From: Candidatus Moraniibacteriota bacterium
GTDB lineage: Bacteria; Patescibacteriota; Minisyncoccia; Moranbacterales; GCA-2747515
NCBI GenBank assembly: GCA_016699795.1
Contig: CP065011.1
Span: 1,011,449 to 1,075,448, forward strand
Length of the DNA: 64,000 bases
Direction: 5' to 3'
Shown here one piece after another: positions 15,616-30,659 of this stretch. The first letter of the stretch is position 1. Each line of letters begins with the position of its first letter. The notes under the pieces were generated by a model that searched no databases, was not told where the DNA came from, and saw only the letters and a list, made by a program, of their open reading frames with translations. Position numbers and translations under genes: made by a program.

Positions 15616-16929
15616 ATGCGATACCAAAAAATAGGAATTTTTTCAGCTTTATGCATCCTCGTAATAATTACGTATTATCGTTGGTTTTCTTTTTCATGGT
15701 TTGGTCTTGGGGATTGGAATATATATTTTTCTGAAAATTTACGAGAGTTTTCACTACTTTCTTTATGGAATACAAGTTTAGGTTTTGGAGTTTTGGATGT
15801 GATCGTTTGGAAAATTCCTTATAGTCTCCTTATCTCCTTATTTGGATTTCTTGGTTTTGATTCAAATATTTCGGATAAATTTCTCATTCTGATTCCTTTG
15901 GCATTCTTTTCTTTATTTGCACCTTTTATCCTCTTGAAGAAAATTGTTCGATCAAATATTTCCGCGTTTATAGGAGCATTTATTTTTGCATATTCCAGTT
16001 ATTTTCTTGCTATCCATACGCATGGTCACCAACATCTTTCTATGGCAAGTGTATGGGGCGTATTCGCTCTTTATTTTTGTATACGTTTGGTAGAGGAGAG
16101 GCGGATAGAGTGGGCGGTGCTGGGGGGGATGATACTTGCGATTTCCGGATATTATGATTTTCGATTTGCCTATATTTTCTTTTTTATATGCGGTGGGTTT
16201 CTCTTGGTTTCGTGGGTGAAAGAGGTGAGAGGAGAAAATATGAAAGTAAAGAGCAGGGAGTCTTCTTCTCTCCCTTTGCTAAAAGGGAGTACCCGAGTCA
16301 TCGAGGGGGAGGGATTTGTATCTCAGATGGGGAAAATCCCCCTCAATCCCCCTTTTCCTAAGGGGGAGGAAGACGGAGGGGAAGGAGATTCGATCACAAT
16401 GACGGGGGAAAGAAAGAATGTATGGAATCTTTTTTGGATGAGTACGGTGTTTGTACTGGTATTTGCTGGACTCAATGTTTTTTGGATTTTACCTTTTGCT
16501 ACGGCAGGGGCTATGTCAGAAAATGCAGGAGTGGGACGAGATCTTTTTGGTAATGATTATTTCGAACTTCAAGAAGCACTCTTTCTCTCGCATCCTTTCT
16601 GGACAGGGTATGGAGTTGAGTGGATGTCCAATCAACCAACTCCATGGTGGCTTACTATTTTGGGAATCTTAGCTTTTGCAGGTTTCTGGGTAGGAAGAAA
16701 AAATCCATATGTAGTATTTTTCGCTCTCATTGCTCTCATCGGAATATTTTTGGGTAAACAAGTCGATCCTCCCTTTGGAAACTCGTATTACTGGCTCTAT
16801 GAGAATCTCCCGGGCTTCAATGCCTTTCGTGAAGCTTCCAAATTTTATGTACTCATTGCTCTGGGCTACTCCGTCGGCCTCGCCTCCCTCATCAACTGGC
16901 TTTTACCGAAAGAGGGAAGTGAAAAATAA
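15616..16929 (+). CDS. N-terminal (TM-domain) half of a third YfhO-like paralog, split from its C-terminal half at 30660-31670; carries an in-frame GC-rich insert
   Basis: It is multi-TM. Its end (NSYYWLYENLPGFNAFREASKFYVLIALGYSVGLASL) aligns with EYLYEKVPVLALFRTPDTKFGLPIILILSLIIGYF of paralog A and stops in the short cytoplasmic loop before the last N-domain TM. Confidence 0.6.
   Translation: MRYQKIGIFSALCILVIITYYRWFSFSWFGLGDWNIYFSENLREFSLLSLWNTSLGFGVLDVIVWKIPYSLLISLFGFLGFDSNISDKFLILIPLAFFSLFAPFILLKKIVRSNISAFIGAFIFAYSSYFLAIHTHGHQHLSMASVWGVFALYFCIRLVEERRIEWAVLGGMILAISGYYDFRFAYIFFFICGGFLLVSWVKEVRGENMKVKSRESSSLPLLKGSTRVIEGEGFVSQMGKIPLNPPFPKGEEDGGEGDSITMTGERKNVWNLFWMSTVFVLVFAGLNVFWILPFATAGAMSENAGVGRDLFGNDYFELQEALFLSHPFWTGYGVEWMSNQPTPWWLTILGILAFAGFWVGRKNPYVVFFALIALIGIFLGKQVDPPFGNSYYWLYENLPGFNAFREASKFYVLIALGYSVGLASLINWLLPKEGSEK
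16266..16385. repeat. GC-rich palindromic mini-element inserted in frame within CDS 15616-16929
   Basis: ctctccctttgctaaaagggagtacccgagtcatcgagggggagggatttgta plus ccccctt ttcctaa gggggagg. Copies of the same element occur at 16966-17020, 26170-26228 and, inverted, at 22871-22925. It encodes ..SSLPLLKGSTRVIEGEGFVSQMGKIPLNPPFPKGEEDGGEGDS. Confidence 0.7.
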
Positions 16930-17050
16930 AGAAGTTTAACAAAAAATTAAGAATGCAAAAATTCCTCTCTAGCTCTCCCTTTGCCAAAAGGGAGTACTCC
17001 TAAGGGGGAGGGATTTGTATAAATTTCAAGCTCTAAGAAAAATTGTTGAA
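16864..17050. repeat. master copy of a 187-bp segment (3' end of gene 15616-16929 plus downstream) duplicated at 26071-26257 and partially elsewhere in the island
   Basis: Near-identical string from ggctactccgtcggcctcgc to ctctaagaaaaattgttgaa at both positions. Confidence 0.8.
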
Positions 17051-17066
17051 TCTGCCTTTTCTTACT

Positions 17067-17095
17067 TTGACAAAATCTCAAACACTAGTTATATT
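17067..17095 (+). promoter_or_regulatory. sigma70-like promoter TTGACA-17-TATATT upstream of the copy-2 MKQLSTR gene
   Basis: Hexamers with a 17-nt spacer, 24 bp upstream of ATG 17119. Confidence 0.45.
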
Positions 17096-17118
17096 TCCTA
17101 TAATTAAGCATCAAATCT

Positions 17119-17838
17119 ATGAAACAACTTTCTACTCGAACCATCGCTATTATTACCCTTATAGCCATTGCCTTTCTAGCATTAGGAGTTTTTGTGATGC
17201 AAAAAGTTTACAACACACCTCTTCCTGTTGTAGAGAATGAAGTTGAGCAAAAAGAAAATCCGAAAACAAATGATGAAACCTTCATTACTGACGTTGATAT
17301 GAATGTAGAGAATTGGCAAACAAAAGAAACGGAATTTTTTACTATTAAATTTCCGAAGGAGTGGTATTTCTTTCAAACAAACTATGATACGATGGGATAT
17401 AACTCATACGTTATTACAAACAATCCAAATTTCGATATTAGTAAATATCCAGACATTAGTATTGGAGTGGGGAGGATCTATCCTTTGGATCTGATGAATG
17501 AAACAGAAATTGTAATTTCATCAAACTATCTTGGGGATGCTACTGCTAATTCAGGAACGTCTTTGGATTACATAGAATATATGATCAATAGTATGAGGGA
17601 ATACGTAGGTTTTACCGTTGCATGTCAATATATGTCGAGTATGGACAGTATCCCTCTTGCTACGTATTGCTCATTTACAGATGAGGATAATAAGCAAAGA
17701 GTTGGAACGTATTATGCTTCTTATCCAATACGTACGTTTGGATTCTCTGCTCGTGTGAAAAAGGAAAATAATATGGTTTTAGAAAAAATATTGGAGGGTA
17801 TTGTACAAAATTATTCTGTAACTGTTTCATATCGGTAG
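17119..17838 (+). CDS. MKQLSTR-family signal-anchored protein, copy 2
   Basis: N-terminal MKQLSTRTIAIITLIAIAFLALGVFVMQKVYNTPLPVVENEVEQKENPKTNDETF. The central block VDMNVENWQTKETEFFTIKFPKEWY..NNPNFDISKYPDI is shared with ORF 27474; the C-terminus is unique. Confidence 0.75.
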   Translation: MKQLSTRTIAIITLIAIAFLALGVFVMQKVYNTPLPVVENEVEQKENPKTNDETFITDVDMNVENWQTKETEFFTIKFPKEWYFFQTNYDTMGYNSYVITNNPNFDISKYPDISIGVGRIYPLDLMNETEIVISSNYLGDATANSGTSLDYIEYMINSMREYVGFTVACQYMSSMDSIPLATYCSFTDEDNKQRVGTYYASYPIRTFGFSARVKKENNMVLEKILEGIVQNYSVTVSYR

Positions 17839-17962
17839 GAAATTATTGGTTTTTCCGCTTCTTAATCACCTCATCTAAACATGATGGGGTTATCTATGAA
17901 ACGGTAATATCCGTTTCTCAAAAAACATTTGATCTTTAACAATTCGAAAGAGGACTTTCTCC

Positions 17963-18685
17963 ATGAAACTGTTAGCGCAAGGCGTATTGAGTGTATTCTT
18001 AGTATTGTCCAGTCTGGGTGCAGTCGCCGGAACGAATGAGTGCTACGGCTACACGTCTACAACGAATCATTTCCCATGCCTTTATCCAACTGGCAACTGC
18101 ACCTGGTGGGCAGCATATATGCGCCCCGATATTGCAGAAGTGATCACCGGAAGCGGATGGGATGGTGGAAATTGGATCAACAAGCTCAATGGAATGATTC
18201 CTGTTGGTTCCGTTCCTGGAGTTGGGGCAATCGTGGAGTTCGATGGGCACGTTGCCTTCGTAACGAACGTGTTGGATGGGGGTGCATTTCGTGTTTCGGA
18301 AATGGATGCTACTGGAAAATTGGGTAATGGTTTGCAATACGCCACCTACTACCCAGGTAGTAGTAATACCTATCATCGCAATACCGATCGCGGATCTGAT
18401 GTTAAAGGGAGTTGGATCCTCAAAGGTTTCATTTACGCTGAAGATCCCGCAATTATTCCTGGCAATCAATTCTCGATCCGTCATGTGGGAAATTATGGTT
18501 GGTATCCAGCATACAGCTCGTGCATTCATGCCGAGTCATGGTATGGATTTAATAATGATAAAAAGATCGTAAGGATCTATCGCTATTCCAACCACAACCC
18601 GTGTCAATGGATCTACGAAACACTTTATCCGAAAGAGGTCAGTTACAATGCACTCTTCGGAAATGCTAATGCGTGCTATCAATAA
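17963..18685 (+). CDS. secreted CHAP-domain peptidoglycan hydrolase (amidase/endopeptidase), copy 2
   Basis: Signal peptide. Catalytic Cys in GNCTWWAAYMRP and His in DGHVAFVTNV. About 65% aa identity to ORF 28304-29002. Confidence 0.8.
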   Translation: MKLLAQGVLSVFLVLSSLGAVAGTNECYGYTSTTNHFPCLYPTGNCTWWAAYMRPDIAEVITGSGWDGGNWINKLNGMIPVGSVPGVGAIVEFDGHVAFVTNVLDGGAFRVSEMDATGKLGNGLQYATYYPGSSNTYHRNTDRGSDVKGSWILKGFIYAEDPAIIPGNQFSIRHVGNYGWYPAYSSCIHAESWYGFNNDKKIVRIYRYSNHNPCQWIYETLYPKEVSYNALFGNANACYQ

Positions 18686-18717
18686 GACGCAAAACGACCA
18701 TTTGAGAGGTGCTAATC

Positions 18718-20022
18718 GTGAAAACGAAACGATTCTTTGAAGTAGTAATTACTTCCATTTTCCTCTTTGCTTTCGCAAGCGTTTACGCTTCCGATTGCGG
18801 AGAATTCGCAACTATCTCTGTTCCAAGTTCGGGCGGAGGATATGTGAGTGGAGGCGATGGCTACATCCCACCCCAAAATCCAACTCCCACAGACCCTGTC
18901 AATCTTACCCAAGATACTGACATTCTTGGTGCTGACGGCAATGAACTCTATGCTGGACGTGACTCAATCCTTTCTGGAATGAAAGTAAAAGTCCGCGTTG
19001 CAGTGCAAGCTGAAGGAGGGGATGCAGGAAACTGGAAAACGAGAAACGATGCCGACACTATAGACATCGCTTACTCCGTAAGTTCCAATGATGGTCCTTG
19101 GACTCAGTTTGATACTGGGTACATTACCATTTCTAAACTTGATGAGGGACAAACTATCACGGAAACGAAGGAATACACTATTCCAAATGGCATCTCTTCG
19201 ATTGCATTTCGCACAGAAACCGATTATCGAGATGAAGTCGAAGAATATGATGAAGGAGATAATACCAGTCGCGTAGAACGATTTGAGATTTCAAATCTCA
19301 AACCTGACTACAGCATCACTGATGTTTTCTTCTCTGATCCCAGTACAGGAGCCATATACCGAAATGGTGCAATACTCTTAGAAGATAGAGAGTGGTATCC
19401 CTATTGTGAGATAATGAGCACAGGAGAAATCAATGCTCCTATCAACGTAGAAGTTTCTCACCGTATGGATGGAACAGAAAGAGATACTGATACGCTAGGA
19501 ATAGATGATATTTCTTTGGGACAAACATATCGTGAAGTCGTCTGGAGCAAATGGAAACTGGGAAATACAGGAACACGTACCTATACGTGCTGTGTAGATT
19601 CCAAAGGTTGGCTTCCAGAACTCAATGAGAGCAATAATTGCAAGAGTGCACTCTTTACGATAGTTCCATGGAAACCTAGTATCACCATCACTGATCTCTG
19701 GGTAGACTATGATGGAAAAGTAGTTCGTAATGGTGGAACAGGGAGCAAAGGGAAACGTTATCATCCTAATGTTACCTTCACCAATACGGGAAACAAAACA
19801 ATGTCATGTGGTGCTGAAGCGAAGTACTACATCAATTCTAACTCCTATCGTGATCGTGATACTGTTGGTATTCTGGGAGTAGGAGGTATCGGGCACGAGA
19901 GAGTTGATAACGACAATATCAAACTTGGAGATGGAGGATGGAGATCCTATCGTGTTACTCTCCAATCTAGCTGTGGAGAGTTTCCTACAGTGGAAAGAAC
20001 GATGAGTTTCTATCTTCGATGA
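18718..20022 (+). CDS. secreted CARDB-like repeat protein, copy 2
   Basis: GTG start at 18718 after a GAGAGG RBS. Signal peptide KTKRFFEVVITSIFLFAFASVYA|SD. Motifs EYDEGDNTSRVERFEI and LPELNESNNC (E.NE.NN of CARDB). Near-identical to 29035-30339 and to the 3' 1.15 kb of 1318-3237. Confidence 0.6.
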   Translation: MKTKRFFEVVITSIFLFAFASVYASDCGEFATISVPSSGGGYVSGGDGYIPPQNPTPTDPVNLTQDTDILGADGNELYAGRDSILSGMKVKVRVAVQAEGGDAGNWKTRNDADTIDIAYSVSSNDGPWTQFDTGYITISKLDEGQTITETKEYTIPNGISSIAFRTETDYRDEVEEYDEGDNTSRVERFEISNLKPDYSITDVFFSDPSTGAIYRNGAILLEDREWYPYCEIMSTGEINAPINVEVSHRMDGTERDTDTLGIDDISLGQTYREVVWSKWKLGNTGTRTYTCCVDSKGWLPELNESNNCKSALFTIVPWKPSITITDLWVDYDGKVVRNGGTGSKGKRYHPNVTFTNTGNKTMSCGAEAKYYINSNSYRDRDTVGILGVGGIGHERVDNDNIKLGDGGWRSYRVTLQSSCGEFPTVERTMSFYLR

Positions 20023-20084
20023 TTCTCAAGAGACTTCCCGCAAGGACGCGGGAAATACTGAAATGATTTATTATGATAGATATA

Positions 20085-20111
20085 CCAGCTTTGGAAGGGG
20101 CTGGTTTTTTT
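20085..20111 (+). terminator. Rho-independent terminator (CCAGCtttggaaggGGCTGG + T8)
   Basis: Stem-loop plus T-run directly after stop 20022. Confidence 0.65.
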
Positions 20112-20688
20112 TGTTTTTTTTCGCATCATTACTCATCGAACCGGCTTTTACCTCCCTCCCATCATCCGAAAGAGGGAAGGAAATAAAAAATGCTTTATAG
20201 CGGTATTTTTCACAAACACTTGACGTAGAAAGGTTATATATATCCATAAAGCATGTATATGCTTTATGGACTAAAGGTTATAAATTATATAACATCTAGT
20301 GCATGATATTAAAAAAGCTTTATAGAAGCATTTCTTATAAACATATGAAAAATGCTAATATAATAGCATATTTCATGCAGGAGATGTCTTTTAGGAGGAA
20401 ATTTAGCAAAGAGATCGTGCTCTCCTAAAATTTGGATTACATTCCAAAAATTTACTTTTACACTTATTATAGCTTATATAAAGCGTTATATTTATAAAAA
20501 AATTTCAGATAATCTCAAAAAGAAAATATTATTTTTATGACCTTGGTATTCACAATGCAATTCTTATTGATTTTTTTTGAAAATTCTCGATGATATACTA
20601 CAAAGCTTTCATTTGGGAACTCTTAGAAAACGCAAGCAACCTCGGAACTGATACCTATATGAAATGGACAGAGGATAGCGATGCTTAA

Positions 20689-21609
20689 CTAAGTAGTTCC
20701 TAGCTCCCGAAGTATACACACTTCGGGAGTTTTTAATTTTTCAAGAATCTCTTTTGCAGGATAGGCGCAGTTTAATTGTTTCGTGTTGGATATTTCTTTG
20801 ATAAAAGCAATACAACTATCAGGCAATAATAATAGAGTCTTGTCCATATCACTCAGGATGCTTAATGCCTTATTGCGAACGTCCGGTGCTCCGTATTGTA
20901 GCAAAGATACGAGAGTTTTTGTAAGTAAAATTTTCATTTCTTGGGACATGCCTGTGATACAAGGAATGAGCTGTCGTAGTAAAATATTCGTACAATCTCT
21001 ATAAAGTTTTTTTCTAAGAAGATATAAAATATTTTCTAATAGAACAGGATCTTTATAGATCCATTGTAGCGCTATTCCAGCATCAATAGATCCGTTCTCC
21101 ACAAGATTGATAAGATCGCTAGTTTTATCAGTACACAATTTTTGCACATCCTGTTCTATTGATCGTAGTATAGGATCTTTTGAGAAAAAAATAGTATCGT
21201 CCCGTTCTAATCCAAGATTACCTCCATTGGCATATAGACTATCTGTGCGTCTTTGATGTGTATTTATTATAGCAATTACTTCTCTAAACCATTTTGGAGT
21301 TTGTAGGTGAGATTTTCTGGATAGGTCTGGATTATTACTCTTTTTGGAGTACAAATCAATCGTCAAAACAGTTTCTAATGTATTGTTATGTTGATATAGA
21401 GGATTCATTATTTCTGCATTATATCCTCGAACGTTGTAGTATTCCCATATTTCTTTCTCAGCACGGTTATATTCTGTAGTAGAATATTTTGATCCGATAA
21501 TAAGACTACTCAGATCCATTGCAAAAGTTATAGGACAAGGATATTTATTTTTTTGATGATGCCATACTTCAATATCTAATAGCACATATTCAAGCTTAAT
21601 ATTTTGCAT
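20689..21609 (-). CDS. hypothetical protein (306 aa) in an AT-rich part of the island
   Basis: Long ORF of uncertain function. The N-terminal LLDIEVWHH is loosely like a DEDD exonuclease motif I, and the C-terminal helical repeats look HEAT-like. Both are weak impressions only. Confidence 0.4.
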   Translation of the reverse strand: MQNIKLEYVLLDIEVWHHQKNKYPCPITFAMDLSSLIIGSKYSTTEYNRAEKEIWEYYNVRGYNAEIMNPLYQHNNTLETVLTIDLYSKKSNNPDLSRKSHLQTPKWFREVIAIINTHQRRTDSLYANGGNLGLERDDTIFFSKDPILRSIEQDVQKLCTDKTSDLINLVENGSIDAGIALQWIYKDPVLLENILYLLRKKLYRDCTNILLRQLIPCITGMSQEMKILLTKTLVSLLQYGAPDVRNKALSILSDMDKTLLLLPDSCIAFIKEISNTKQLNCAYPAKEILEKLKTPEVCILRELGTT

Positions 21610-21689: not shown

Positions 21690-21960
21690 GAAGCACTCTT
21701 TCTCTCGCATCCTTTCTGGATGGACAGGGTATGGAGTACAGCGGATGTCCAATCAACCGACTCCTTGGTGGCTTACTATTTTGGGAATCTTAGCTTTTGC
21801 GGATTTCTGGGTAGGAGTTTTCCCTCGTCATCGCGAGTCCGCCGACTGGCGGAGAAGCGATCCAGAAGGAAAGGAAAATGCATGGATTGCCACATCGCAG
21901 ATTCCTCGCAATGACACTCCCTTCCTCATCAACTGGCTTTTACCAAAAGAAAGAATGAAA
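21690..21960 (+). pseudogene. degenerate partial copy of the 3' part of gene 15616-16929, interrupted by a GC-rich hairpin insert
   Basis: Encodes ..EALFLSHPFWTGYGVQRMSNQPTPWWLTILGILAFADFWVG.., matching 16570-16695. A foreign about 110-bp insert follows (tccgccgactggcgga hairpin), then ..ctcatcaactggcttttacc. Confidence 0.7.
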
Positions 21961-21984
21961 TGAAAAAAGAAAAAGTATAAAAAA

Positions 21985-22013
21985 GAATAAAAACCACCTC
22001 TTCGGTGGTTTTT
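21985..22013. terminator. bidirectional Rho-independent terminator (AAAACCACCtcttcGGTGGTTTTT)
   Basis: Perfect 9-bp stem flanked by A-run and T-run, immediately 3' of the minus-strand gene 22018-22281. Confidence 0.7.
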
Positions 22014-22017
22014 ATAT

Positions 22018-22281
22018 TTACTTTGTAAAGAATTGTTTTTGACCAAATTTTTCTTCGTATTTTTTCAAAAGTTTTTCTTGATCTTTTGCACTAAGTTGAG
22101 CAGCTTTTTCTATGATTTTCTTTTGTTTAGAAGAAGACATAGCAGAAAAATGCTCCTCTTGTTTTGGAGAGGTTTTATGCGTTGTTTTGGAGTAGTTTAA
22201 AATTTTTTCGATAATGATTTTTCGATGTTCTTTGATAAAAATTTTTGCTTGTTCGGCAATATTGGATTCTTCTTTATTCAT
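22018..22281 (-). CDS. small lysine-rich hypothetical protein (87 aa)
   Basis: ORF followed by a strong terminator; no recognisable domain. Confidence 0.35.
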   Translation of the reverse strand: MNKEESNIAEQAKIFIKEHRKIIIEKILNYSKTTHKTSPKQEEHFSAMSSSKQKKIIEKAAQLSAKDQEKLLKKYEEKFGQKQFFTK

Positions 22282-22870
22282 AGTTACATTATACTAAAGA
22301 AGTAACTTTTTGATAAGAAAGACCGTCTTCAATGCCTTTCGTGAAGCTTCCAAATTCTAACTCTGGGGGCTACTCCGTCGGCCTCACCTCCCTCATCAAC
22401 TGGCTTTTACCGAAAGAGGGGAGAAAATAAAGCCATGGTGACGGAGAATAAAATAAAACTTAAATATAATTTGACTTATGTTTAAGTTTGACTTAATGCA
22501 TACTATAAAATAAGTAATTGAAAAAATATTCATACAATGCAAATTTAGATATATCTATTTATACATACAATGCTCAAAAAGTTATAAAAAGACACCTCGA
22601 GTAACTTTTGTTTTACTCTCAGATGGACCCTCTCCCGCTACGGCGGGAACGGAGGAAAAGGAAAGAATAAAAGAGAGGAAGAAGGGAATAGCGTTAAGAA
22701 TAGTGTATTATATTGACCGAAATAGTATGTATTTACGTCAATATGCTAACCAAAACATAAAGAGAAAATGTAAACAAAATCCACGAAATAATATGATTTC
22801 GTGGATAGACAATCCTTGAAATTGACATATTTCGTGGATTCAGTCTTATGAATGGTATGAAATCAAGAAA

Positions 22871-23205: not shown

Positions 23206-24453
23206 ATGACTTTTAAAAGAGATCTTTTGGAAGAGGTAGTGGCAGATCAGGCGCTTTCATTTGCATCACGTAATCGTGGGATAGCACGGTTGGTGAATTT
23301 TGACAATCACAAAAAATCTAAAATGATTACCGTTATATCTGGTGTTCGCCGAAGTGGAAAGTCTACACTCCTTTCGCAATTTTTCGATCTCTTGGGAGGT
23401 GGACATTATTTAAATTTCGATGACGAGCGCTTATCCGAATTTGTTTTGGAGGATTTTCGAACACTTCTCTCAATTTTTGATGGGAAAAAAGAATCAGATA
23501 CTTTCTTTTTTGATGAAATTCAAAATGTTTCTGGGTGGGAACGATTTGTACGCCGTCTTCATGATGAGGGAAAAAAAGTATTTGTAACAGGATCGAATGC
23601 CACGCTTTTGAGTGGTGAGTTAGGAACACATTTAACTGGTCGGTATAAAAAAATAGAGTTATATCCATTTTCTTTTTCTGAATATATTTGTTTTAAAGAA
23701 ATAAATATCACGGATAAAACATCGAAAAACTGTGCGAAAATTGTTAGAGGATTTGATGAATATGCAGAGATGGGTGGTTTTCCGGGATTTTTACTCGAGA
23801 ACGACAGAGAAATTTTACAGAGAATTTATGAGGATATTCTCTATCGTGATCTTTTGGTACGATTTCAAATACGCGAAGTAGAGGCATTTCGTAAGTTAGC
23901 GTCATTTCTTTTTGCTAATGTAGGAAAAAACATTGGATATTCTTCTCTAAAAAATATTTTGGGTTTTGCAAGTGCTACATCGGTAAAGAATTACGTTTCT
24001 TTTTTGGAAGAGAGCTTTTTGCTTTTTGAAATGAGAAAATATGATGCGTCTCTCAAAAAACAATATGTCTCAGAGAAGAAAATATATGCTGTGGACAACG
24101 GACTTCGTAATGCCATTTCTTTTTCTGCTTCCGAGGATCGCGGTAGGATGTTGGAAAATGCGGTGTATATGGAACTGCGCCGACGTGGGAAAGACGTGTT
24201 TTTTTTCAAAGAAAAGCGAGAATGTGATTTTGTTGTTCGCAAGGGAATACGAATTGCTGAGGCGATTCAGGTCTGCGAGAATATTTCTGATCTAGAAACA
24301 AAAGATCGAGAGGTATCGGGACTTGTTGAAGCTATGAATGTATTGCATCTTTCTTCGGGAACGATTATCACTCGCTATGAAGAAGAAACAATTGAGATTG
24401 AGGGAAAAAAAATATACATTGTTCCAGCATGGAAGTGGTTTTTGGAGATATAA
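23206..24453 (+). CDS. AAA+ ATPase of the AAA_14/DUF4143 family
   Basis: Walker A ITVISGVRRSGKSTLL; Walker B FFFDEIQNV; C-terminal ECDFVV typical of DUF4143. A 12-bp imperfect palindrome (GAATATTAACATtacaaATGTTGATATTC) lies just upstream. Confidence 0.8.
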   Translation: MTFKRDLLEEVVADQALSFASRNRGIARLVNFDNHKKSKMITVISGVRRSGKSTLLSQFFDLLGGGHYLNFDDERLSEFVLEDFRTLLSIFDGKKESDTFFFDEIQNVSGWERFVRRLHDEGKKVFVTGSNATLLSGELGTHLTGRYKKIELYPFSFSEYICFKEINITDKTSKNCAKIVRGFDEYAEMGGFPGFLLENDREILQRIYEDILYRDLLVRFQIREVEAFRKLASFLFANVGKNIGYSSLKNILGFASATSVKNYVSFLEESFLLFEMRKYDASLKKQYVSEKKIYAVDNGLRNAISFSASEDRGRMLENAVYMELRRRGKDVFFFKEKRECDFVVRKGIRIAEAIQVCENISDLETKDREVSGLVEAMNVLHLSSGTIITRYEEETIEIEGKKIYIVPAWKWFLEI

Positions 24454-24699
24454 TGTATTGCAAAAACGTTTACATTTTTACTCTCGTGGGAATACTTCTG
24501 GGCAAACAAGTGTCAGAACCTTTCTCCACACTTTACTCCTGGCTCTATGAAAACCTCCCATCATCCGAAAGAGGGAAGGAAATAAAAAAATGCTTTATAG
24601 CGGTATTTTTCACAAACACTTGACGTAGAAAGGTTATATATATTAAAGTATATATATGTTTTATGAACTAAAGGTTATAAATTATATAACATCTAGTGT

Positions 24700-25281
24700 A
24701 TGATATTAAAAAAAAGCTTTATAGATTCTTTGTATCTTTCGCCTCAATCCGTCTTTTCTAGTAAAGAAATAGCTATTCTTACAAAAGAAGCCGATCCTCT
24801 TTCTCTCAAGTCAAAACTTGCCTATTATGTGCGTAGAGGAAAACTCGTTCGTTTGCGAAAAGGTTTTTATGCAAAACCAGAAAAATACGAAAAAAAAGAA
24901 TTTGCCGTTCGTCTTTATACACCATCATATATCAGTTTTGAAACAGTTCTTGCGCAAGAAGGGATTATTTTTCAATATTACGCAACCATATTTGTTGCTA
25001 GTTATGTGTCTCGGGAGATACAGCTTTCCGATGCTACTTTTCGATATAGAAAAGTAAAGGATGCTATTCTTTTGAATAGAAAAGGTATCGTAGATAAAGA
25101 TGGGTTTTTTGAGGCAAGTAAAGAAAGAGCTTTTCTAGACATGCTTTATAGTAATCCAAAATATTATTTTGATAATTTGCGATCGATCGATTGGGACGCG
25201 TGTTTTGATCTTGTTTCTTTGTATCAAAAAAAATCTCTCGAAAAAACACTTAAAGAATATTATAACTTGTATGCTAAATAG
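24700..25281 (+). CDS. abiEi: AbiEi-like antitoxin/transcriptional regulator (type IV TA, abortive infection)
   Basis: About 190 aa. wHTH-like N-terminus with the KLAYYVRRGKLVRLRKGFYA (RGvY) motif typical of AbiEi_4. Directly upstream of, and overlapping, the AbiEii gene. Confidence 0.55.
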   Translation: MILKKSFIDSLYLSPQSVFSSKEIAILTKEADPLSLKSKLAYYVRRGKLVRLRKGFYAKPEKYEKKEFAVRLYTPSYISFETVLAQEGIIFQYYATIFVASYVSREIQLSDATFRYRKVKDAILLNRKGIVDKDGFFEASKERAFLDMLYSNPKYYFDNLRSIDWDACFDLVSLYQKKSLEKTLKEYYNLYAK

Positions 25282-25978
25282 AGAAAAACACGAGCTTGTA
25301 ATGACGCAAATACTCAAAGATGTGTATGCAGATACTTTTATAGGACCACTTCTGGGATTTAAAGGTGGCACCGCGGCATATTTATTTTATGGATTAGAAA
25401 GATTTTCTGTCGACTTGGATTTTGATCTTTTGGAGGTTTCGGAAGAGAAAAGAACTATCGTATTTGATCGCATTTCTCAGATTCTTCTTCAATACGGAAC
25501 GATACGAGATTCACAACAAAAAGAAAATACTATTTTTTTACTTCTTTCTTATGGAGCAGGAGAATATGGCATAAAAGTTGAAGTAAATACCAGAAAGGTC
25601 GGATCTTTGTATGAAATGAAACAGTATTTTGGCATTCCAATGCTTGTTATGAAAAAAGAATCGATGTTTGCAAGTAAATTAATAGCGCTCATAGAAAGAA
25701 AAAAATTTGCGGCTCGAGATATGTATGATGTATATTATTTTCTAAAAAATAATTGGGATATTGATATTAATGTTTTGAATAAGTATGGAAAGAAAAACAT
25801 TGTTTCTTTTTTGGATGAATGTATTCATTTTGTAGAAAATACCCCGGATAACTCTTTACTGGGAGGATTGGGAGAACTTGTCGAGGAAACGAAAAAAGAC
25901 TTTATTCGAAATAAAATGAAGATGGAAATAGTTTTCTTTCTTTCCATTCGGAAAGAACAATACAAAAAGAGATACTAA
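25271..25978 (+). CDS. abiEii: AbiEii/AbiGii-family nucleotidyltransferase toxin
   Basis: FKGGTAAYLFYGLERFSVDLDFDL matches the DUF1814/AbiEii signature (KGGTAL..yg..R.S.DlD). The start is either ATG 25271 (overlapping the AbiEi stop) or 25301. Confidence 0.7.
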   Translation: MLNREKHELVMTQILKDVYADTFIGPLLGFKGGTAAYLFYGLERFSVDLDFDLLEVSEEKRTIVFDRISQILLQYGTIRDSQQKENTIFLLLSYGAGEYGIKVEVNTRKVGSLYEMKQYFGIPMLVMKKESMFASKLIALIERKKFAARDMYDVYYFLKNNWDIDINVLNKYGKKNIVSFLDECIHFVENTPDNSLLGGLGELVEETKKDFIRNKMKMEIVFFLSIRKEQYKKRY

Positions 25979-26070
25979 CTTTTTTAACAAAGAAAATTAT
26001 TTGGATTTTATAAGTTGAAAGAAAGAAATGGAGGTTAGTAATAGTTCCTTTATGTACTCATTACTCTCCG

Positions 26071-26257
26071 GCTACTCCGTCGGCCTCGCATCCCTCATCA
26101 ACTGGCTTTTACCGAAAGAGGGAAGTGAAAAATAAAGAAGTTTAACAAAAAATTAAGAATGCAAAAATTCCTCTCTAGCTCTCCCTTTGCCAAAAGGGAG
26201 TACTCCTAAGGGGGAGGGATTTGTATAAATTTCAAGCTCTAAGAAAAATTGTTGAAC
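26071..26257. repeat. second copy of the 187-bp 3'-end/downstream segment of gene 15616-16929 (includes one GC-rich mini-element)
   Basis: Near-identical to 16864-17050. Confidence 0.8.
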
Positions 26258-26326: not shown

Positions 26327-27022
26327 ATGAAACAGCTTTCTACTCGAACCATATCAATTATTTCTCTTATAGCCATTGCCATTTTGGCATTAGGAATTTT
26401 TGCAATGCAAAGAGTTTACAACACACCTCTTCCTGTTGTGGAGGATGAAGTTGAACAAAAAGAGAATCTGAAAACAAATGATGATAATAACTCTAAAAAA
26501 GAGCAACAAAATATAGATGAAAATATCATGGCTATGGTAGAAACATTTGATGTTAGTGATTGGCAATTATATTCAAATAATGAACTTGGATTTAGTGTGA
26601 AACTTCCACCAACTTTTGATCTTAATGATCCCAGGATTTATGAAGATGAAAAATTCTTTGTAAAAAGTGTTTGTTTTCCAGATAATCAAGATATGCAGCT
26701 ATATGCCAATGAAGGAGCAGAATCAAGGGGTCCAAGATTATTATGTTTTAAGAAAGGAGCATTGGGAAATGTGGATGACCTTATGACTAAATTTAAGGAT
26801 AGTAGTAATCAATTTGTAAAATATAATATTCTTATTTCTCATGATATTTCTGCAAAACTTTATTTTGGCTTTGGGAGTGGAATAATCTTTGAGTCTAATA
26901 AATATAGATTGACAATCGAAGACTCTTACACCTTCAAAAGCGCTACCATTTTTAACAATGTTTCAAATTTGTATTACCTTGGCATGATCAAAACATTTGT
27001 TTTATTTGATGAGAAAAAGTAA
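26327..27022 (+). CDS. MKQLSTR-family signal-anchored protein, copy 3a
   Basis: N-terminal MKQLSTRTISIISLIAIAILALGIFAMQRVYNTPLPVVEDEVEQKENLKTNDD; unique C-terminal domain; conserved promoter/leader upstream. Confidence 0.75.
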   Translation: MKQLSTRTISIISLIAIAILALGIFAMQRVYNTPLPVVEDEVEQKENLKTNDDNNSKKEQQNIDENIMAMVETFDVSDWQLYSNNELGFSVKLPPTFDLNDPRIYEDEKFFVKSVCFPDNQDMQLYANEGAESRGPRLLCFKKGALGNVDDLMTKFKDSSNQFVKYNILISHDISAKLYFGFGSGIIFESNKYRLTIEDSYTFKSATIFNNVSNLYYLGMIKTFVLFDEKK

Positions 27023-27127
27023 TAATTCATTTTCGGAATAATGCTCCAACCAAAGAGAAATCCTTCCCTTTGGTTGCCGGCAATGTTTCGGTATTCTGAC
27101 CTTTGACAAATAGAGGAGTCTATTCGA

Positions 27128-27316
27128 ATGAATATTCGATTGTTTCTCGTACTATGCTTTTTTACCACATCTTTCTCAGCATTCTCTGCTGAATCGATTC
27201 GTACGGTAACGGGATTCTATTATCCCATTGGAATGACAAAAGATACGATTGTAAAACAGGAAATACTTGATACGATAGCTAAGAATATTATTTTAAAGAA
27301 TAATTTTCCAGAGTAA
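27128..27316 (+). CDS. 62-aa ORF with its own signal peptide whose C-terminus duplicates the last 30 aa of ORF 27474-28193; a small secreted protein or a cassette remnant
   Basis: ..IGMTKDTIVKQEILDTIAKNIILKNNFPE* matches ..IGMTKDTVVKQEILDTIAKNIILKNNFPE* of the next gene. The same NNFPE*-plus-leader junction recurs at about 390-404. Confidence 0.35.
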   Translation: MNIRLFLVLCFFTTSFSAFSAESIRTVTGFYYPIGMTKDTIVKQEILDTIAKNIILKNNFPE

Positions 27317-27473
27317 ATCTTTCTTTGATTATCTCATTTGGATGTAATGGTTAGTTGATAGGCTACCGACGATGACCCATGGACTCAGTTTGACACTGGA
27401 TATATGACTATCGAAAAACTTGACATAAAGCCATATTTTAGGTATATTTTTTGTACATTATTTTAAATACATT

Positions 27474-28193
27474 ATGAAACAGCTTTCCACTCGAACTATA
27501 GCCATTATTTCCCTTATCGCCATTGCCATTTTGGCATTAGGAGTCTTTGCAATACAAAGAGCTTACAATACCCCACTTCCTGTTGTGGAGAATAAAGTTG
27601 AACAAAAAGAGAATCCGAAAACAAATGATAAAATCTTCATTGCCGATGTTGATATGAATATTGAAAATTGGCAAACGAAAGAAACGAAATTCTTTACGAT
27701 TAAATTTCCAAAAGAGTGGTATTGGTTGGAATCTGATTTTGAAAAGATAGGATATCATTCACAAGCAATCACCAATAATCCAAATTTTGATATAAACAAG
27801 TATCCTGACATTGGAATGTTTACTGGATATGATTATCCAATGATACTTAAAGAAAATAGTGAGGTTATTATAACGTTTGGAGGTTTTCCCACATCCAATT
27901 CTGGCACACCAAAGGATAGCTCTGATTATATTAAGAAATCCGTTTTAGATAAAAATTCTTCCGCTCAGTGCAAGGAAATTCAGATTACTAATAACAATGA
28001 TAGAAATGTAACTCTTTTTATTACCTGTTCTTTTATGGATATATATGGGTACAGCATAAAGAAGTATAGCGCTATTAATAACGAAATTTCTATTACAATA
28101 ACCATTGGAATGACAAAAGATACGGTTGTAAAACAGGAAATACTTGATACGATAGCTAAGAATATTATTTTAAAGAATAATTTTCCAGAGTAG
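27474..28193 (+). CDS. MKQLSTR-family signal-anchored protein, copy 3b
   Basis: N-terminal MKQLSTRTIAIISLIAIAILALGVFAIQRAYNTPLPVVENKVEQKENPKTNDKIF; shares a central block with ORF 17119. Confidence 0.75.
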   Translation: MKQLSTRTIAIISLIAIAILALGVFAIQRAYNTPLPVVENKVEQKENPKTNDKIFIADVDMNIENWQTKETKFFTIKFPKEWYWLESDFEKIGYHSQAITNNPNFDINKYPDIGMFTGYDYPMILKENSEVIITFGGFPTSNSGTPKDSSDYIKKSVLDKNSSAQCKEIQITNNNDRNVTLFITCSFMDIYGYSIKKYSAINNEISITITIGMTKDTVVKQEILDTIAKNIILKNNFPE

Positions 28194-28303
28194 ACCTTTT
28201 CTCGATTACCTTATTTGAATATGATTGGGTAATCTATGAAGCGGTAATATCCGTTTCTCAAAAAGCAATTGTTTTTTGACAATTTGAAAGAGGAGTTTTT
28301 TCC

Positions 28304-29002
28304 ATGAACATGCTAATGAAGACTGTGCTATACACACTTCTTTTCTTATCTAATATGGGAGTATATGCCGGAACAGATGAATGCTATGGATATAAATCTA
28401 CAACGAGTCATTTTGCGTGTGGTGAATATGGCAATTGTGTATGGTGGGCTGCATATATGCGTCCGGATATTGCTAGGGTTATAACGGGAAGTGGTTGGAA
28501 TGGTGGAGATTGGTACGCTAAACTTAAGGGAACGATTCCAGTTGGTTCCGTTCCGGAAGTTGGTGCAATTGTGGAATTTGAAGGCCACGTTGCGTTTGTT
28601 AAGGATATACTGGACGAAGGAGCATTCGCTGTATCAGAAATGGATTATTATGGGCAGTTTGGTTCGGGCGTACAATATGCCACATACACTCCCAATGGTG
28701 ATGGGACCTATCAACGAAATAATGAATCAAAGAAATGGACCCTCAACGGTTTCATTTATGCTGAAGATCCGGCAGTTATCCCTGGCAACACTTTTACGGT
28801 ACGTCGGGTAGGTAACTATGCTTGGCATCCTGCAGACAGTTCGTGTATCAATGCAAAAAATTGGTACGGACTCAATAGCGATCGAAAAATCGTACGTACG
28901 TACGACGATAGCCAAGTATGCCAATGGATCTACGAAACACTCTACCCACAAGAGGTAAGCTATAATGCACTCTTCGGAAATGCTAATGCGTGCTATCAAT
29001 AA
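28304..29002 (+). CDS. secreted CHAP-domain peptidoglycan hydrolase, copy 3
   Basis: Catalytic Cys in GNCVWWAAYMRP and His in EGHVAFVKDI. Signal peptide. AGAGGAG RBS. Confidence 0.8.
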   Translation: MNMLMKTVLYTLLFLSNMGVYAGTDECYGYKSTTSHFACGEYGNCVWWAAYMRPDIARVITGSGWNGGDWYAKLKGTIPVGSVPEVGAIVEFEGHVAFVKDILDEGAFAVSEMDYYGQFGSGVQYATYTPNGDGTYQRNNESKKWTLNGFIYAEDPAVIPGNTFTVRRVGNYAWHPADSSCINAKNWYGLNSDRKIVRTYDDSQVCQWIYETLYPQEVSYNALFGNANACYQ

Positions 29003-29034
29003 GACGCAAAACGACCATTTGAGAGGTGCTAATC

Positions 29035-30339
29035 GTGAAAACGAAACGATTCTTTGAAGTAGTAATTACTTCCATTTTCCTCTTTGCTTTCGCAAGCGTT
29101 TACGCTTCCGATTGCGGAGAATTCGCAACTATCTCTGTTCCAAGTTCGGGCGGAGGATATGTGAGTGGAGGCGATGGCTACATCCCACCCCAAAATCCAA
29201 CTCCCACAGACCCTGTCAATCTTACCCAAGATACTGACATTCTTGGTGCTGACGGCAATGAACTCTATGCTGGACGTGACTCAATCCTTTCTGGAATGAA
29301 AGTAAAAGTCCGCGTTGCAGTGCAAGCTGAAGGAGGGGATGCAGGAAACTGGAAAACGAGAAACGATGCCGACACTATAGACATCGCTTACTCCGTAAGT
29401 TCCAATGATGGTCCTTGGACTCAGTTTGATACTGGGTACATTACCATTTCTAAACTTGATGAAGGAGTTACTATTACAGAAACGAAAGAATACACTATTC
29501 CAAATGGCATCTCTTCGATTGCATTTCGCACAGAAACCGATTATCGAGATGAAGTCGAAGAATATGATGAAGGAGATAATACCAGTCGCGTAGAACGATT
29601 TGAGATTTCAAATCTCAAACCTGACTACAGCATCACTGATGTTTTCTTCTCTGATCCCAGTACAGGAGCCATATACCGAAATGGTGCAATACTCTTAGAA
29701 GATAGAGAGTGGTATCCCTATTGTGAGATAATGAGCACAGGAGAAATCAATGCTCCTATCAACGTAGAAGTTTCTCACCGTATGGATGGAACAGAAAGAG
29801 ATACTGATACGCTAGGAATAGATGATATTTCTTTGGGACAAACATATCGTGAAGTCGTCTGGAGCAAATGGAAACTGGGAAATACAGGAACACGTACCTA
29901 TACGTGCTGTGTAGATTCCAAAGGTTGGCTTCCAGAACTCAATGAGAGCAATAATTGCAAGAGTGCACTCTTTACGATAGTTCCATGGAAACCTAGTATC
30001 ACCATCACTGATCTCTGGGTAGACTATGATGGAAAAGTAGTTCGTAATGGTGGAACAGGGAGCAAAGGGAAACGTTATCATCCTAATGTTACCTTCACCA
30101 ATACGGGAAACAAAACAATGTCGTGTGGTGCTGAAGCAAAGTACTACATTAATTCTAACTCCTATAGAGATAGAGACGGGATCGATCCTCTTTCCGTGAA
30201 TCAATCCGGACATGAGAGAGTCGAGAACGACAATATCAAACTTGGAGATGGAGGATGGAGATCATATCGTGTTACTATCCAATCTAGCTGTGGAGAGTTT
30301 CCTACAGTGGAAAGGACGATGAGTTTTTATCTTCGATGA
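29035..30339 (+). CDS. secreted CARDB-like repeat protein, copy 3
   Basis: Identical to copy 2 except for small patches (EGVTITE versus EGQTITE; a C-terminal 35-aa patch). Confidence 0.6.
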   Translation: MKTKRFFEVVITSIFLFAFASVYASDCGEFATISVPSSGGGYVSGGDGYIPPQNPTPTDPVNLTQDTDILGADGNELYAGRDSILSGMKVKVRVAVQAEGGDAGNWKTRNDADTIDIAYSVSSNDGPWTQFDTGYITISKLDEGVTITETKEYTIPNGISSIAFRTETDYRDEVEEYDEGDNTSRVERFEISNLKPDYSITDVFFSDPSTGAIYRNGAILLEDREWYPYCEIMSTGEINAPINVEVSHRMDGTERDTDTLGIDDISLGQTYREVVWSKWKLGNTGTRTYTCCVDSKGWLPELNESNNCKSALFTIVPWKPSITITDLWVDYDGKVVRNGGTGSKGKRYHPNVTFTNTGNKTMSCGAEAKYYINSNSYRDRDGIDPLSVNQSGHERVENDNIKLGDGGWRSYRVTIQSSCGEFPTVERTMSFYLR

Positions 30340-30392
30340 TTCTCGAGAGACTTCCCGCAAGGACGCGGGAAATACTGAAATGAATGAAGATG

Positions 30393-30428
30393 AACCAGTT
30401 TTGAAAAAGGCTGGTTTTTTTGTTTTTT
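30393..30428 (+). terminator. Rho-independent terminator (AACCAG..CTGGTT + T-run)
   Basis: Same structure as 3291-3322. Confidence 0.7.
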
Positions 30429-30659
30429 TTCGCATCATTACTCATCAACTGGCTTTTACCTCCCTCCCATCATCCGAAAGAAGAAATAAAGTAACGCCAT
30501 GGCGATCCAGAATTTCTCCCCCTGAGAAAAAAAGGGAGCTTTTTTCTTAAAGGAAAGAATTATACGAGAAAAGGGAAATATTCATGGTTACATGAAGGGT
30601 GTAAAAAATAGTAACCAATTGGAGTAACAAAATTTCTTCTTGTGTGTTAATATGGCTAT

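What the first reader, a model, noticed from the sequence alone, without database searches (positions are those of the whole stretch)
16864..30500. The 3' end of the split gene is duplicated repeatedly across the island, like nested att-site duplications
The last about 70 nt of gene 15616-16929 plus about 120 nt downstream (16864-17050) recur almost exactly at 26071-26257. Partial or degenerate copies are at 20130-20195, 21690-21960 (pseudogene with a GC-hairpin insert), 22320-22440, 24470-24590 and 30425-30500. Junctions of type ..ctcatcaactggcttttacc|tccctcccatcatccgaaagag.. follow each CARDB terminator. Each module (cassette copy 2; the 20.2-24.6 kb block; the AbiE-plus-cassette copy 3) is bracketed by such copies. 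This is what serial site-specific integrations at the 3' end of a target gene would leave, as at tRNA genes, yet no integrase is present.
Basis: seen in the sequence. Interest (0 to 1): 0.7.

Follow-up and report, generated by a model that had tools for sequence, protein, structure and literature searches.

The report
Gene-tail relics bracket swapped island modules
In an ultra-small (Patescibacteria) bacterium, a membrane-protein gene is split by a 13.7-kb pile of accessory and defence genes. Each block is separated from the next by a leftover copy of the gene's 3' end, and the blocks seem to be added and shuffled by ordinary homologous recombination rather than by an integrase.

Summary
The 3' end of gene 15616-16929 (A_N) recurs six more times between 20122 and 30494. 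An exact 20-nt string, CTCATCAACTGGCTTTTACC, occurs five times, against 0.02 expected by chance. A_N and 30660-31670 (A_C) are two halves of one gene: 66 distant relatives have it unsplit.

Close relatives (L002, L006, L082, L089, L094) carry different cargo at the same split, again bracketed by A_N relics. No integrase was detected in the window. None is annotated in any relative's island.

The CHAP-CARDB cassette sits precisely at the 20-nt string in three contexts. Two have clear empty-site counterparts, so "serial insertion at the gene tail" holds.

The mechanism looks homology-driven, not att/integrase-driven:
- Relics start at five different codons and reach up to 330 nt upstream of the string.
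- The string is not conserved in relatives with the same architecture and has no dyad symmetry.
- A_N is a mosaic: its 5' part is 50-62% identical to relatives, its last ~800 nt 94-99%.
- Modules are 95-98% identical between genomes whose core genes are 68-78% identical.

A trans-acting recombinase is not excluded. I rate this a new variant of known recombination hotspots and orphan 3'-end arrays.

The parts
15616..16929 (+). A_N: N-terminal half (437 aa) of a split ~710-760-aa Patescibacteria membrane protein. It is a chimera: low-GC native 5' part and imported 3' part.
   Evidence: 66 of 66 GTDB-representative homologues have A_N and A_C contiguous. Identity to L004 and L007 is 50-62% for 15616-16015, then 94-99% from about 16050, and GC jumps from 0.30 to 0.43-0.48. 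Protein-level mosaic.
16888..16907 (+). 20-nt string copy 1 (codons LINWLLP), followed by the type I tail 16908-16929 and a shared post-tail segment 16930-17050.
   Evidence: (D5, D7)
17119..20121 (+). Cassette copy 2 (M1): 239-aa membrane protein (17119-17838), CHAP (17963-18685), CARDB (18709-20022), hairpin plus T-run terminator (20078-20121).
   Evidence: Pfam. 87% identical to copy 3 over 17859-20186. Sequence.
20122..20186 (+). Relic 2: the last ~20 codons of A_N, type II tail, 1-nt indel in the string.
   Evidence: (D12, D18)
20187..20326 (+). R-segment copy 1: the AbiE promoter region plus the first ~9 AbiEi codons, orphaned here. 94% identical to 24586-24725.
   Evidence: (D13, D14)
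20689..21609 (-). 306-aa ORF of unknown function. The model shows an alpha/beta N-domain and a HEAT/ARM-like helical C-domain. Not recombinase-like.
   Evidence: No hit in Pfam, PADLOC or NCBIfam. AF2 pLDDT 76. Best PDB matches are helical repeats, all with E > 0.01.
21690..21963 (+). Relic 3: A_N from codon ~320 (91% to 16573-16695), a GC-rich hairpin insert at 21817-21919, then string copy 21925-21944 and a degenerate tail.
   Evidence: (D10, D19)
22018..22281 (-). 87-aa ORF (p87), 97.7% identical to its copy in relative L082.
22327..22430 (+). Relic 4: A_N from codon ~401, string copy 22392-22411, type I-like tail. About 20 nt follow that resemble the native sequence after the tail at 30495-30515.
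   Evidence: (D7, D15)
23206..24453 (+). AAA_14/DUF4143 ATPase (PADLOC candidate defence family PDC-S01), 96.4% identical to L082's copy.
24470..24585 (+). Relic 5: a diverged A_N allele from codon ~370, an internal microhomology deletion (CCTCCC), type II tail.
   Evidence: L082 has the same relic with a different deletion (at CTTT).
24586..25978 (+). R-segment copy 2 plus the AbiEi/AbiEii toxin-antitoxin pair (ORFs 24700-25281 and 25169-25978).
25981..26048 (+). 3' remnant of a second AAA_14 gene that is intact in L082 (4429-5556). This breakpoint is not at the string.
26049..26135 (+). Relic 6: A_N from codon ~410, string copy 26094-26113, type I tail. 26136-26256 is the same post-tail segment as 16930-17050.
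   Evidence: (D5)
26327..30430 (+). Cassette copy 3 (M3): 231-aa and 239-aa paralogues, CHAP (28304-29002), CARDB (29026-30339), terminator.
   Evidence: 29194-30425 is 99.35% identical to copy 1 (2092-3324).
30431..30494 (+). Relic 7, the presumed original tail: string copy 30441-30460 and type II tail. The next 20 nt match what follows the A_N stop in relative L004.
   Evidence: The independent Logan contig L001 breaks at window position 30452, inside this string.
30660..31670 (+). A_C: C-terminal half (336 aa) of the split gene, conserved as a separate ORF in relatives.

Best explanation
The 13.7 kb between the two halves of a split membrane-protein gene is a recombination hotspot. It holds two CHAP-CARDB surface-protein cassettes, an AbiE toxin-antitoxin pair, an AAA_14/DUF4143 ATPase and two unknown ORFs.

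Each module travels with a relic of the A_N 3' end. These relics, together with the 3' ~800 nt of A_N itself, act as portable homology arms. DNA from a related cell pairs with A_N (or a relic) on one side and with another relic or tail on the other. The host's general recombination machinery then inserts [tail + cargo + relic] and leaves A_N intact. Patescibacteria are naturally competent, so uptake of free DNA is the likely route, although another transfer route is possible.

Recombination between relics within one genome deletes, duplicates, reorders or gene-converts modules. The first relics probably arose when an incoming A_N-3'-plus-cargo segment joined illegitimately upstream of the resident tail. 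That would displace the resident tail downstream, as in Rhs/CdiA orphan arrays. No dedicated integrase is needed.

Shown: the relics and their coordinates; the split; variable cargo at the same site in relatives; precise filled and empty sites; recent exchange of modules between diverged genomes; the A_N mosaic; no detectable integrase.

Inferred: RecA dependence, the DNA uptake route, and the order of events.
For: 1. A_N is a recombinant. Nucleotide identity to L004 and L007 is 50-62% over 15616-16015. It is 94-99% from about 16050 to the tail, and for L007 the high identity runs on through the tail into the cassette's left end. GC steps up at the same place. At protein level, three unrelated N-terminal backgrounds (30-51% identical) share a C-terminal 150 aa that is 97-100% identical. 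P0003 and P0005 show further internal switches.
2. Modules are 95-98% identical between the window and L082 (p87, AAA_14, CARDB end). Syntenic housekeeping genes are 68-78% identical at nt level and 56-82% at aa level. That indicates recent inter-lineage transfer into the same site.
3. Relics differ in length (64-274 nt) and start codon, and contain A_N sequence well upstream of the 20-nt string.
4. The same architecture occurs in L006, L082 and L089. There the relics carry each genome's own allele at the string position. L089 has a perfect 437-nt duplicate of the A_N 3' end bracketing a module.
5. A 99% identity tract (16864-17050 vs 26070-26256) straddles the string by 24 nt inside an 87% context, which looks like gene conversion.
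6. An unrelated 168-nt direct repeat brackets the DUF3800 gene at 3392-4644.
7. No integrase: Pfam on nearly all window ORFs of at least 100 aa; no recombinase Pfam family annotated in any relative's island; the 306-aa ORF is not recombinase-like.
8. Natural competence and recombination with homology arms have been shown experimentally in Patescibacteria (PMC10633639). Hotspots without mobile-element genes that turn over by recombination at flanking core genes are documented (PMC5635113).
Against: - The cassette's right end (T-run + CGCATCATTA + string) is joined to three different right-hand contexts, and the homology available there is only about 20-30 nt. That is short for RecA-mediated exchange and is what a site-specific crossover would give.
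- All five good copies of the string in the window are exact.
- Only 64 kb of a 1.19-Mb genome could be searched, so a recombinase encoded elsewhere cannot be excluded.
- recA, comEC and dprA were not checked in this genome.
- Some breakpoints (25981; 20326) are neither at relics nor at obvious homology, so illegitimate events also contribute.
Confidence: 0.55

Rival explanations
1. Serial site-specific integration (tandem accretion) of integrase-less cassettes, comparable to cis-mobilizable elements (CIMEs). A recombinase encoded elsewhere in the genome, or on a helper element, recognises the A_N tail around CTCATCAACTGGCTTTTACC. Each cassette carries an attP that mimics the gene's last ~50 nt.
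For: - The string is exact in 5 copies against 0.02 expected.
- The cassette is found in three contexts, with breakpoints at the edges of the string. Two have clear empty-site counterparts: L082 5587-5660 for M3, and window 21925 for L082's cassette. M1 has only a distant L002-like counterpart.
- The hypothetical attP (cassette right end + string + type I tail) would restore an intact A_N, as elements that integrate at the 3' end of a gene do (PMC5704250; PMC3146451; bioRxiv 10.1101/2020.12.28.424599).
Against: - No recombinase was found in 64 kb or in the islands of five or more relatives.
- Relics extend 30-330 nt upstream of the string and have different left ends.
- The string is not conserved in L089, L006 or L002, which have the same architecture.
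- There is no dyad symmetry, only a 6-8-nt imperfect inverted repeat with a 21-nt spacer.
- Cassette copy 1 lies elsewhere with no such site.
- The string gives 0 hits in 2.9 million viral contigs.
- The A_N mosaic has crossovers far from the string.
Confidence: 0.25
2. Purely local history: repeated tandem duplication of [A_N 3' end + downstream genes] by unequal crossing-over, followed by decay, with no horizontal input.
For: - L089 has a perfect 437-nt duplicate.
- There are many local paralogue remnants, for example 27225-27343 and 47-309 vs 987-1249.
Against: - Modules are 95-98% identical between genomes whose core genes are ~70-78% identical.
- Cargo between relics is unrelated from module to module.
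- Tail alleles I and II correspond to natural alleles in different lineages.
- The GC of the A_N 3' half and of the cassettes (0.42-0.48) differs from their surroundings.
Confidence: 0.07
3. Assembly artefact: population variants of one locus were concatenated into a false tandem array.
For: Short-read assemblies break at these repeats. L001 ends inside the string, and L006 and L090 end inside relics.
Against: - The same multi-relic architecture is assembled independently in three ENA assemblies of a relative (L082-L084) and in L089.
- The relics differ from one another in sequence and length.
- The window comes from a 1.19-Mb contig.
Confidence: 0.03

Closest known systems
[quoted passage not shown] 2017, PMC5635113), and core-gene-flanked defence hotspots (PMC10250203)
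   Same: Variable accessory and defence cargo sits at one fixed chromosomal site across relatives. No mobility genes are present. There is a recombination signal in the flanking gene. The host lineage is naturally transformable.
   Different: Here the left flank is the 3' half of a split gene. That flank is copied again in front of every module, so insertion adds modules rather than replacing them. The flank itself belongs to the exchanged block.
Orphan (displaced 3'-end) arrays downstream of rhs and cdiA genes (PMC3967940)
   Same: A main gene is followed by a series of 3' fragments. The fragments keep some upstream homology, vary in length, and are each linked to their own downstream cargo. 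Recombination between the main gene and the fragments rearranges the locus.
   Different: The relics here encode no variable toxin domain, only a 7-17-codon tail. The cargo is unrelated to the gene (surface-protein cassettes, AbiE, an ATPase), not cognate immunity genes. The gene is a split membrane protein of unknown function.
Tandem accretion of ICE, IME and CIME elements, or of tycheposons and ssrA islands, at the 3' end of a target gene or tRNA (PMC5704250; bioRxiv 10.1101/2020.12.28.424599; PMC3146451)
   Same: Nested direct repeats of the target's 3' end delimit successive elements. The target gene stays intact. Older elements are pushed distally. Some elements in such arrays lack an integrase.
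   Different: Those systems are defined by a site-specific integrase and a fixed att core. Here no integrase was found, the relic lengths vary, the 'core' is lineage-specific coding sequence, and the target gene is itself mosaic.
pdif modules and IMEX elements that use host Xer recombinases (named from my own knowledge, not from a retrieved paper)
   Same: Small modules without a recombinase, including toxin-antitoxin pairs, are bounded by repeated short sites.
   Different: No dif-like 11-6-11 dyad is present at the junctions. The setting is chromosomal rather than plasmid.

Membership tests
Site-specific integrative elements in tandem (CIME/IME accretion; tRNA- or gene-3'-end-targeting islands) | Each element is flanked by direct repeats derived from the 3' end of the target gene | tested here: met
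   Seven tail copies bracket six modules.
Site-specific integrative elements in tandem (CIME/IME accretion; tRNA- or gene-3'-end-targeting islands) | A tyrosine or serine recombinase is encoded in the array or in a cognate element | tested here: not met
   No recombinase Pfam hit in nearly all window ORFs of at least 100 aa or in the annotated islands of L002, L006, L082, L089 and L094. The 306-aa ORF is not recombinase-like. The rest of the 1.19-Mb genome could not be searched.
Site-specific integrative elements in tandem (CIME/IME accretion; tRNA- or gene-3'-end-targeting islands) | A fixed att core and a constant extent of duplicated target sequence at all junctions | tested here: inconclusive
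   The 20-nt string is exact in 5 copies and cassette junctions fall at its edges. However, relics start at codons ~320, 370, 401, 410 and 419, and the string differs in L089, L006 and L002.
Site-specific integrative elements in tandem (CIME/IME accretion; tRNA- or gene-3'-end-targeting islands) | Excision as a circle with a regenerated attP and attB | not testable with these tools
   This needs reads or PCR. Only static filled and empty comparisons are available.
Recombination-driven HGT hotspot between conserved genes | Different gene content at the same site in related genomes, between conserved flanks | tested here: met
   Cargo between A_N and A_C: window 13.7 kb; L002 and L094 AbiE only; L089 DUF3800 remnant, ParA-like gene and AAA_14; L082 cassette, p87, AbiE and two AAA_14 genes; L006 DUF3800 and AbiE; L004 other cargo.
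Recombination-driven HGT hotspot between conserved genes | Homologous-recombination signal (mosaicism) in the flanking gene | tested here: met
   Step from 50-62% to 94-99% nt identity inside A_N. Segment-wise protein mosaic across four lineages.
Recombination-driven HGT hotspot between conserved genes | The host has RecA and a DNA-uptake route | not tested
   recA and comEC are not in the window. Competence is shown for Saccharibacteria only (PMC10633639).
Rhs/CdiA-type orphan 3'-end arrays | A main gene is followed by 3' fragments that retain upstream homology | tested here: met
Rhs/CdiA-type orphan 3'-end arrays | The fragments encode polymorphic C-terminal toxin domains paired with immunity genes | tested here: not met
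   Tails are 7-17 codons (PKEGSEK*, PPSHHPKEEIK*). The cargo is CHAP/CARDB, AbiE and AAA_14.
Integron | An IntI integrase plus attC hairpin sites bounding promoterless cassettes | tested here: not met
   No integrase. The repeats are coding-sequence relics, not attC-like. Rfam finds nothing in the window.
Xer-dependent modules (pdif/IMEX) | A 28-bp dif-like site with two inverted 11-bp arms at the module borders | tested here: not met
   No dyad symmetry around the string.

The most novel reading that the evidence does not exclude
An integrase-free, self-perpetuating cassette system in streamlined, naturally competent CPR bacteria. Every accessory module carries its own copy of the 3' end of a split host gene as a built-in homology arm. 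Any relative with that gene can then capture, stack, excise (as a circle holding one relic) and pass on modules using only RecA. That would make it a functional analogue of an integron or att system built from homologous recombination.

Alternatively, a still unrecognised recombinase family acts on the 20-nt string.
Probability: 0.2. Interest if true: 0.7.

Novelty: new variant of a known kind. Interest (0 to 1): 0.5.

Why it matters
Patescibacteria have tiny genomes and few recognisable mobile elements, yet they exchange genes. This locus gives a concrete, testable picture of how. A permissive split in a membrane-protein gene has become a shared docking site. Defence genes (AbiE, a PDC-S01-type ATPase) and cell-surface cassettes move into it between lineages whose core genes are only ~70-78% identical, apparently without any integrase.

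If the relics do act as portable homology arms, similar relic-bracketed arrays could be used to find accessory and defence islands in uncultivated lineages. They could also suggest safe insertion sites and arm designs for genetic work in CPR bacteria.

Tried and rejected
- Exact-protein look-up of A_N found nothing. The look-up of A_C gave only a Logan contig that breaks in the repeat.
- The single-protein scan of genome contigs found no relative. The alignment-based scan found 66 loci, all unsplit.
- The metagenome scan gave only 8 loci.
- The 20-nt string has 0 hits in viral contigs. The CARDB and AAA_14 proteins have no viral relatives, so there is no sign of a phage or satellite vehicle.
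- tRNA and Rfam scans of the window were empty, so the locus is not tRNA-linked.
- The 306-aa ORF as a hidden recombinase was rejected. It has no family hits and a helical-repeat fold.
- p87, the 239-aa and 231-aa proteins and the A family itself have no Pfam, NCBIfam or PDB sequence match, so the function of the split gene remains unknown.
- Integron and dif/Xer readings were rejected because the required site structure is absent.
- In-situ duplication without HGT was rejected on the contrast between module and core identity.

Full report
**What is there.** The window comes from a Patescibacteria genome. The A_C protein is identical to NCBI 'MAG: Candidatus Moraniibacteriota bacterium' IPN70_04855, on a 1.19-Mb contig. 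Gene 15616-16929 (A_N, 437 aa) and gene 30660-31670 (A_C, 336 aa) are the two halves of a ~710-760-aa membrane protein of unknown function. Two full-length paralogues lie just upstream (11169-13346 and 13333-15609), inside a glycosylation gene cluster. In all 66 homologous loci recovered from GTDB species representatives, and in five metagenome loci, the A_N-like and A_C-like parts lie within 112 nt of each other, consistent with one unsplit gene. The split state is confined to a small clade: the window, L002/L003, L004/L005, L006, L007, L082-L087, L089-L091 and L094. In that clade both halves remain intact ORFs.

**Check of the observation.**
- 16864-17050 matches 26070-26256 over 187 nt at 99%.
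- 20122-20186 and 30431-30494 follow the CARDB terminators of cassette copies 2 and 3.
- 21690-21963 matches A_N from codon ~320 at 91%, then has a GC-rich insert and a degenerate tail.
- 22327-22430 starts at codon ~401.
- 24470-24585 is a diverged allele from codon ~370 with an internal deletion.
- 26049-26135 starts at codon ~410.

The string CTCATCAACTGGCTTTTACC is exact at 16888, 21925, 22392, 26094 and 30441. That compares with 0.02 matches expected, and there are none elsewhere in the 64 kb. Two corrections are needed. First, cassette copy 1 (565-3324) ends at its terminator without any A_N tail. Second, there are two tail alleles, type I (PKEGSEK*) and type II (PPSHHPKEEIK*, with 15 extra nt). 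Both are natural gene ends in different relatives.

**Layout of the island.** Read left to right, each tail is followed by its cargo:
- A_N with a type I tail, then cassette M1 (239-aa protein, CHAP, CARDB).
- Relic 2 (type II), then an orphaned AbiE promoter segment and a 306-aa ORF on the minus strand.
- Relic 3, then an 87-aa ORF (p87) on the minus strand.
- Relic 4, then a MITE-like element and an AAA_14/DUF4143 ATPase (PADLOC PDC-S01).
- Relic 5 (type II), then the AbiE promoter, AbiEi and AbiEii.
- A 3' remnant of a second AAA_14 gene, relic 6 (type I), then cassette M3.
- Relic 7 (type II) with about 20 nt of native downstream sequence, then A_C.

**Relatives.** The same split site carries other cargo, again punctuated by A_N relics.
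- L002 and L094: A_N, AbiE, A_C.
- L006: A_N, a 182-aa ORF and DUF3800, a relic, AbiE, a relic.
- L089: A_N, a decayed DUF3800, a relic, a ParA-like gene, a 437-nt relic, AAA_14, A_C.
- L082: CARDB end, the string, p87, a relic, AbiE, a relic, AAA_14, a second AAA_14, a relic, A_C.

None of these islands has a gene with a recombinase Pfam family. In the window, Pfam scans of nearly all ORFs of at least 100 aa found no integrase. The only sizeable unknown ORF (306 aa) models as an alpha/beta domain plus HEAT/ARM-like repeats and has no significant structural match.

**Evidence that modules move, and land at the tail.** Between the window and L082, the p87 block, the AAA_14 block and the CARDB 3' end are 96%, 95% and 98% identical in DNA. 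Syntenic housekeeping genes (A_C, PD-(D/E)XK nuclease, Mur ligase, MurG, FtsW) are only 68-78% identical in DNA and 64-82% in protein. The modules were therefore exchanged recently between diverged lineages.

Breakpoints between the two arrangements fall at the string. L082 1-284 matches window 30179-30460, and L082 262-745 matches window 21922-22406. The two matches overlap only in the string. The cassette's right end (T-run + CGCATCATTA + string) is joined to three different continuations:
- type II tail plus the AbiE promoter (window M1);
- type II tail plus native sequence (window M3);
- the p87 tail (L082).

L082 5587-5660 is the empty version of the site filled by M3, and window 21925 is the empty version of L082's cassette junction.

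**Why I favour homologous recombination over an att/integrase system.**
1. A_N itself is a mosaic. Against L004 and L007, nucleotide identity is 50-62% for 15616-16015. It then steps to 94-99% from about 16050 to the tail, and in L007 the high identity continues through the tail and 190 nt into the cassette. GC steps from about 0.30 to 0.43-0.48 at the same place. In protein terms, three unrelated N-terminal backgrounds share a C-terminal 150 aa that is 97-100% identical, with further internal switches in P0003, P0005, P0006 and P0007. Crossovers therefore occur at several places inside the gene, far from the string.
2. Relics contain 30-330 nt of A_N upstream of the string and have different left ends. 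A conservative crossover at a fixed core would not create these.
3. Relatives with the same architecture carry a different sequence at the string position, for example GTGGAGTGGTTGTTGCC in L089. L089 has a perfect 437-nt duplicate of its own A_N 3' end.
4. The 99% identity tract shared by 16864-17050 and 26070-26256 straddles the string by 24 nt within an 87% context, which looks like a gene-conversion tract.
5. The string lacks dyad symmetry.
6. Another module, the DUF3800 gene at 3693-4280, is bracketed by an unrelated 168-nt direct repeat (3392-3559 and 4483-4644, 89% identical).
7. Relics decay by microhomology deletions that differ between genomes, and some breakpoints are not at relics at all (25981; 20326). 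This is what a patchwork made by general recombination and illegitimate joins would look like.

Natural competence and integration through homology arms have been demonstrated in Patescibacteria (PMC10633639). Integrase-free hotspots that turn over by recombination at flanking core genes are documented (PMC5635113).

**What remains against this view.** Where the cassette's right end meets its three contexts, only about 20-30 nt of homology is available. All five window copies of the string are exact. I could search only 64 kb of the genome. A recombinase encoded elsewhere, acting on cassettes that resemble integrase-less CIMEs (PMC5704250), therefore remains a live rival. I give it about 0.25, against about 0.55 for the homology model. 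Purely local duplication and assembly artefact are largely excluded by the module-versus-core identity contrast and by independent assemblies of the same architecture.

**Comparison with known systems.**
- The locus works most like the integrase-free recombination hotspots of Oliveira et al.
- Structurally it resembles the orphan 3'-end arrays downstream of rhs and cdiA genes (PMC3967940).
- It differs from both. The repeated arm is the tail of a split, non-toxin gene and is copied in front of every module, so acquisition is additive.
- It resembles ICE/CIME accretion, tycheposon islands and ssrA islands in its nested target-end repeats. It fails their defining feature, an integrase, as far as this could be tested.
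- Integron and Xer/dif readings fail on site structure.

**Verdict.** I rate it a new variant of a known kind, of moderate interest (0.5).

Noticed in passing
window 16262-16317, 16973-17016, 22869-22924 (inverted), 26179-26226; also L002 1324-1443 and L004 3647-3709: A GC-rich MITE-like element (CTCTCCCTTTGCYAAAAGGGAGTAC...GGGGGAGGGATTT) occurs 4 times. One copy lies in frame inside A_N and is translated as SSLPLLKGSTRVIEGEGF. A_N homologues differ mainly by such in-frame GC-rich insertions (alignment A1, columns 228-320 and 420-500). This is reminiscent of Rickettsia palindromic elements.
   Followed up: partly
window 21817-21919, 3420-3445, 4505-4530, 22620-22660; L082 2350-2420, 4010-4095, 5650-5740: A second family of GC-rich hairpin elements (GTCATTCCCGCGGAGGCGGGAATCC-like) is inserted right after TTTTACCTCCCTC in several A_N tails of L082 and inside relic 3 of the window.
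   Followed up: no
window 3392-3559 and 4483-4644: A 168-nt direct repeat (89% identical) brackets a truncated GT4 start (3581-3679) and a DUF3800 gene (3693-4280). This is a second module in the window flanked by duplicated neighbouring sequence, unrelated to A_N.
   Followed up: partly
window 47-3324: Cassette copy 1 has CHAP and CARDB fused in one 655-aa ORF (1270-3237). It is 99.35% identical to copy 3 over 2092-3324 but only 96% identical to copy 2. It has no A_N tail at its end. This points to recent gene conversion or transfer between distant copies.
   Followed up: partly
window 27225-27343, 302-429, and 47-309 vs 987-1249: 3' remnants of the small membrane-protein genes sit upstream of their intact paralogues (92%, 70% and 85% identity). 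The same 'relic of the upstream gene's 3' end' pattern appears within the cassettes.
   Followed up: no
window 59878-60403: A near-perfect 265-nt tandem duplication (98.9%) lies inside the 661-aa ORF 59363-61348, which has no Pfam hit.
   Followed up: no
L089 5446-5882 and 8323-8759: A perfect 437-nt direct repeat of the A_N 3' end, 2.9 kb apart, brackets a decayed DUF3800 module and a ParA-like gene in a relative.
   Followed up: yes
L088, L092, L093: In three more distant relatives an A_C-type half-gene stands alone downstream of unrelated housekeeping genes (PriA, UvrA), with no A_N nearby. The two halves can therefore be separated in the genome.
   Followed up: no
window 31804-32949: A PD-(D/E)XK / Cas4-like nuclease gene lies just downstream of A_C on the opposite strand. 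It is conserved in L082 (81% aa). No link to the island was established.
   Followed up: no
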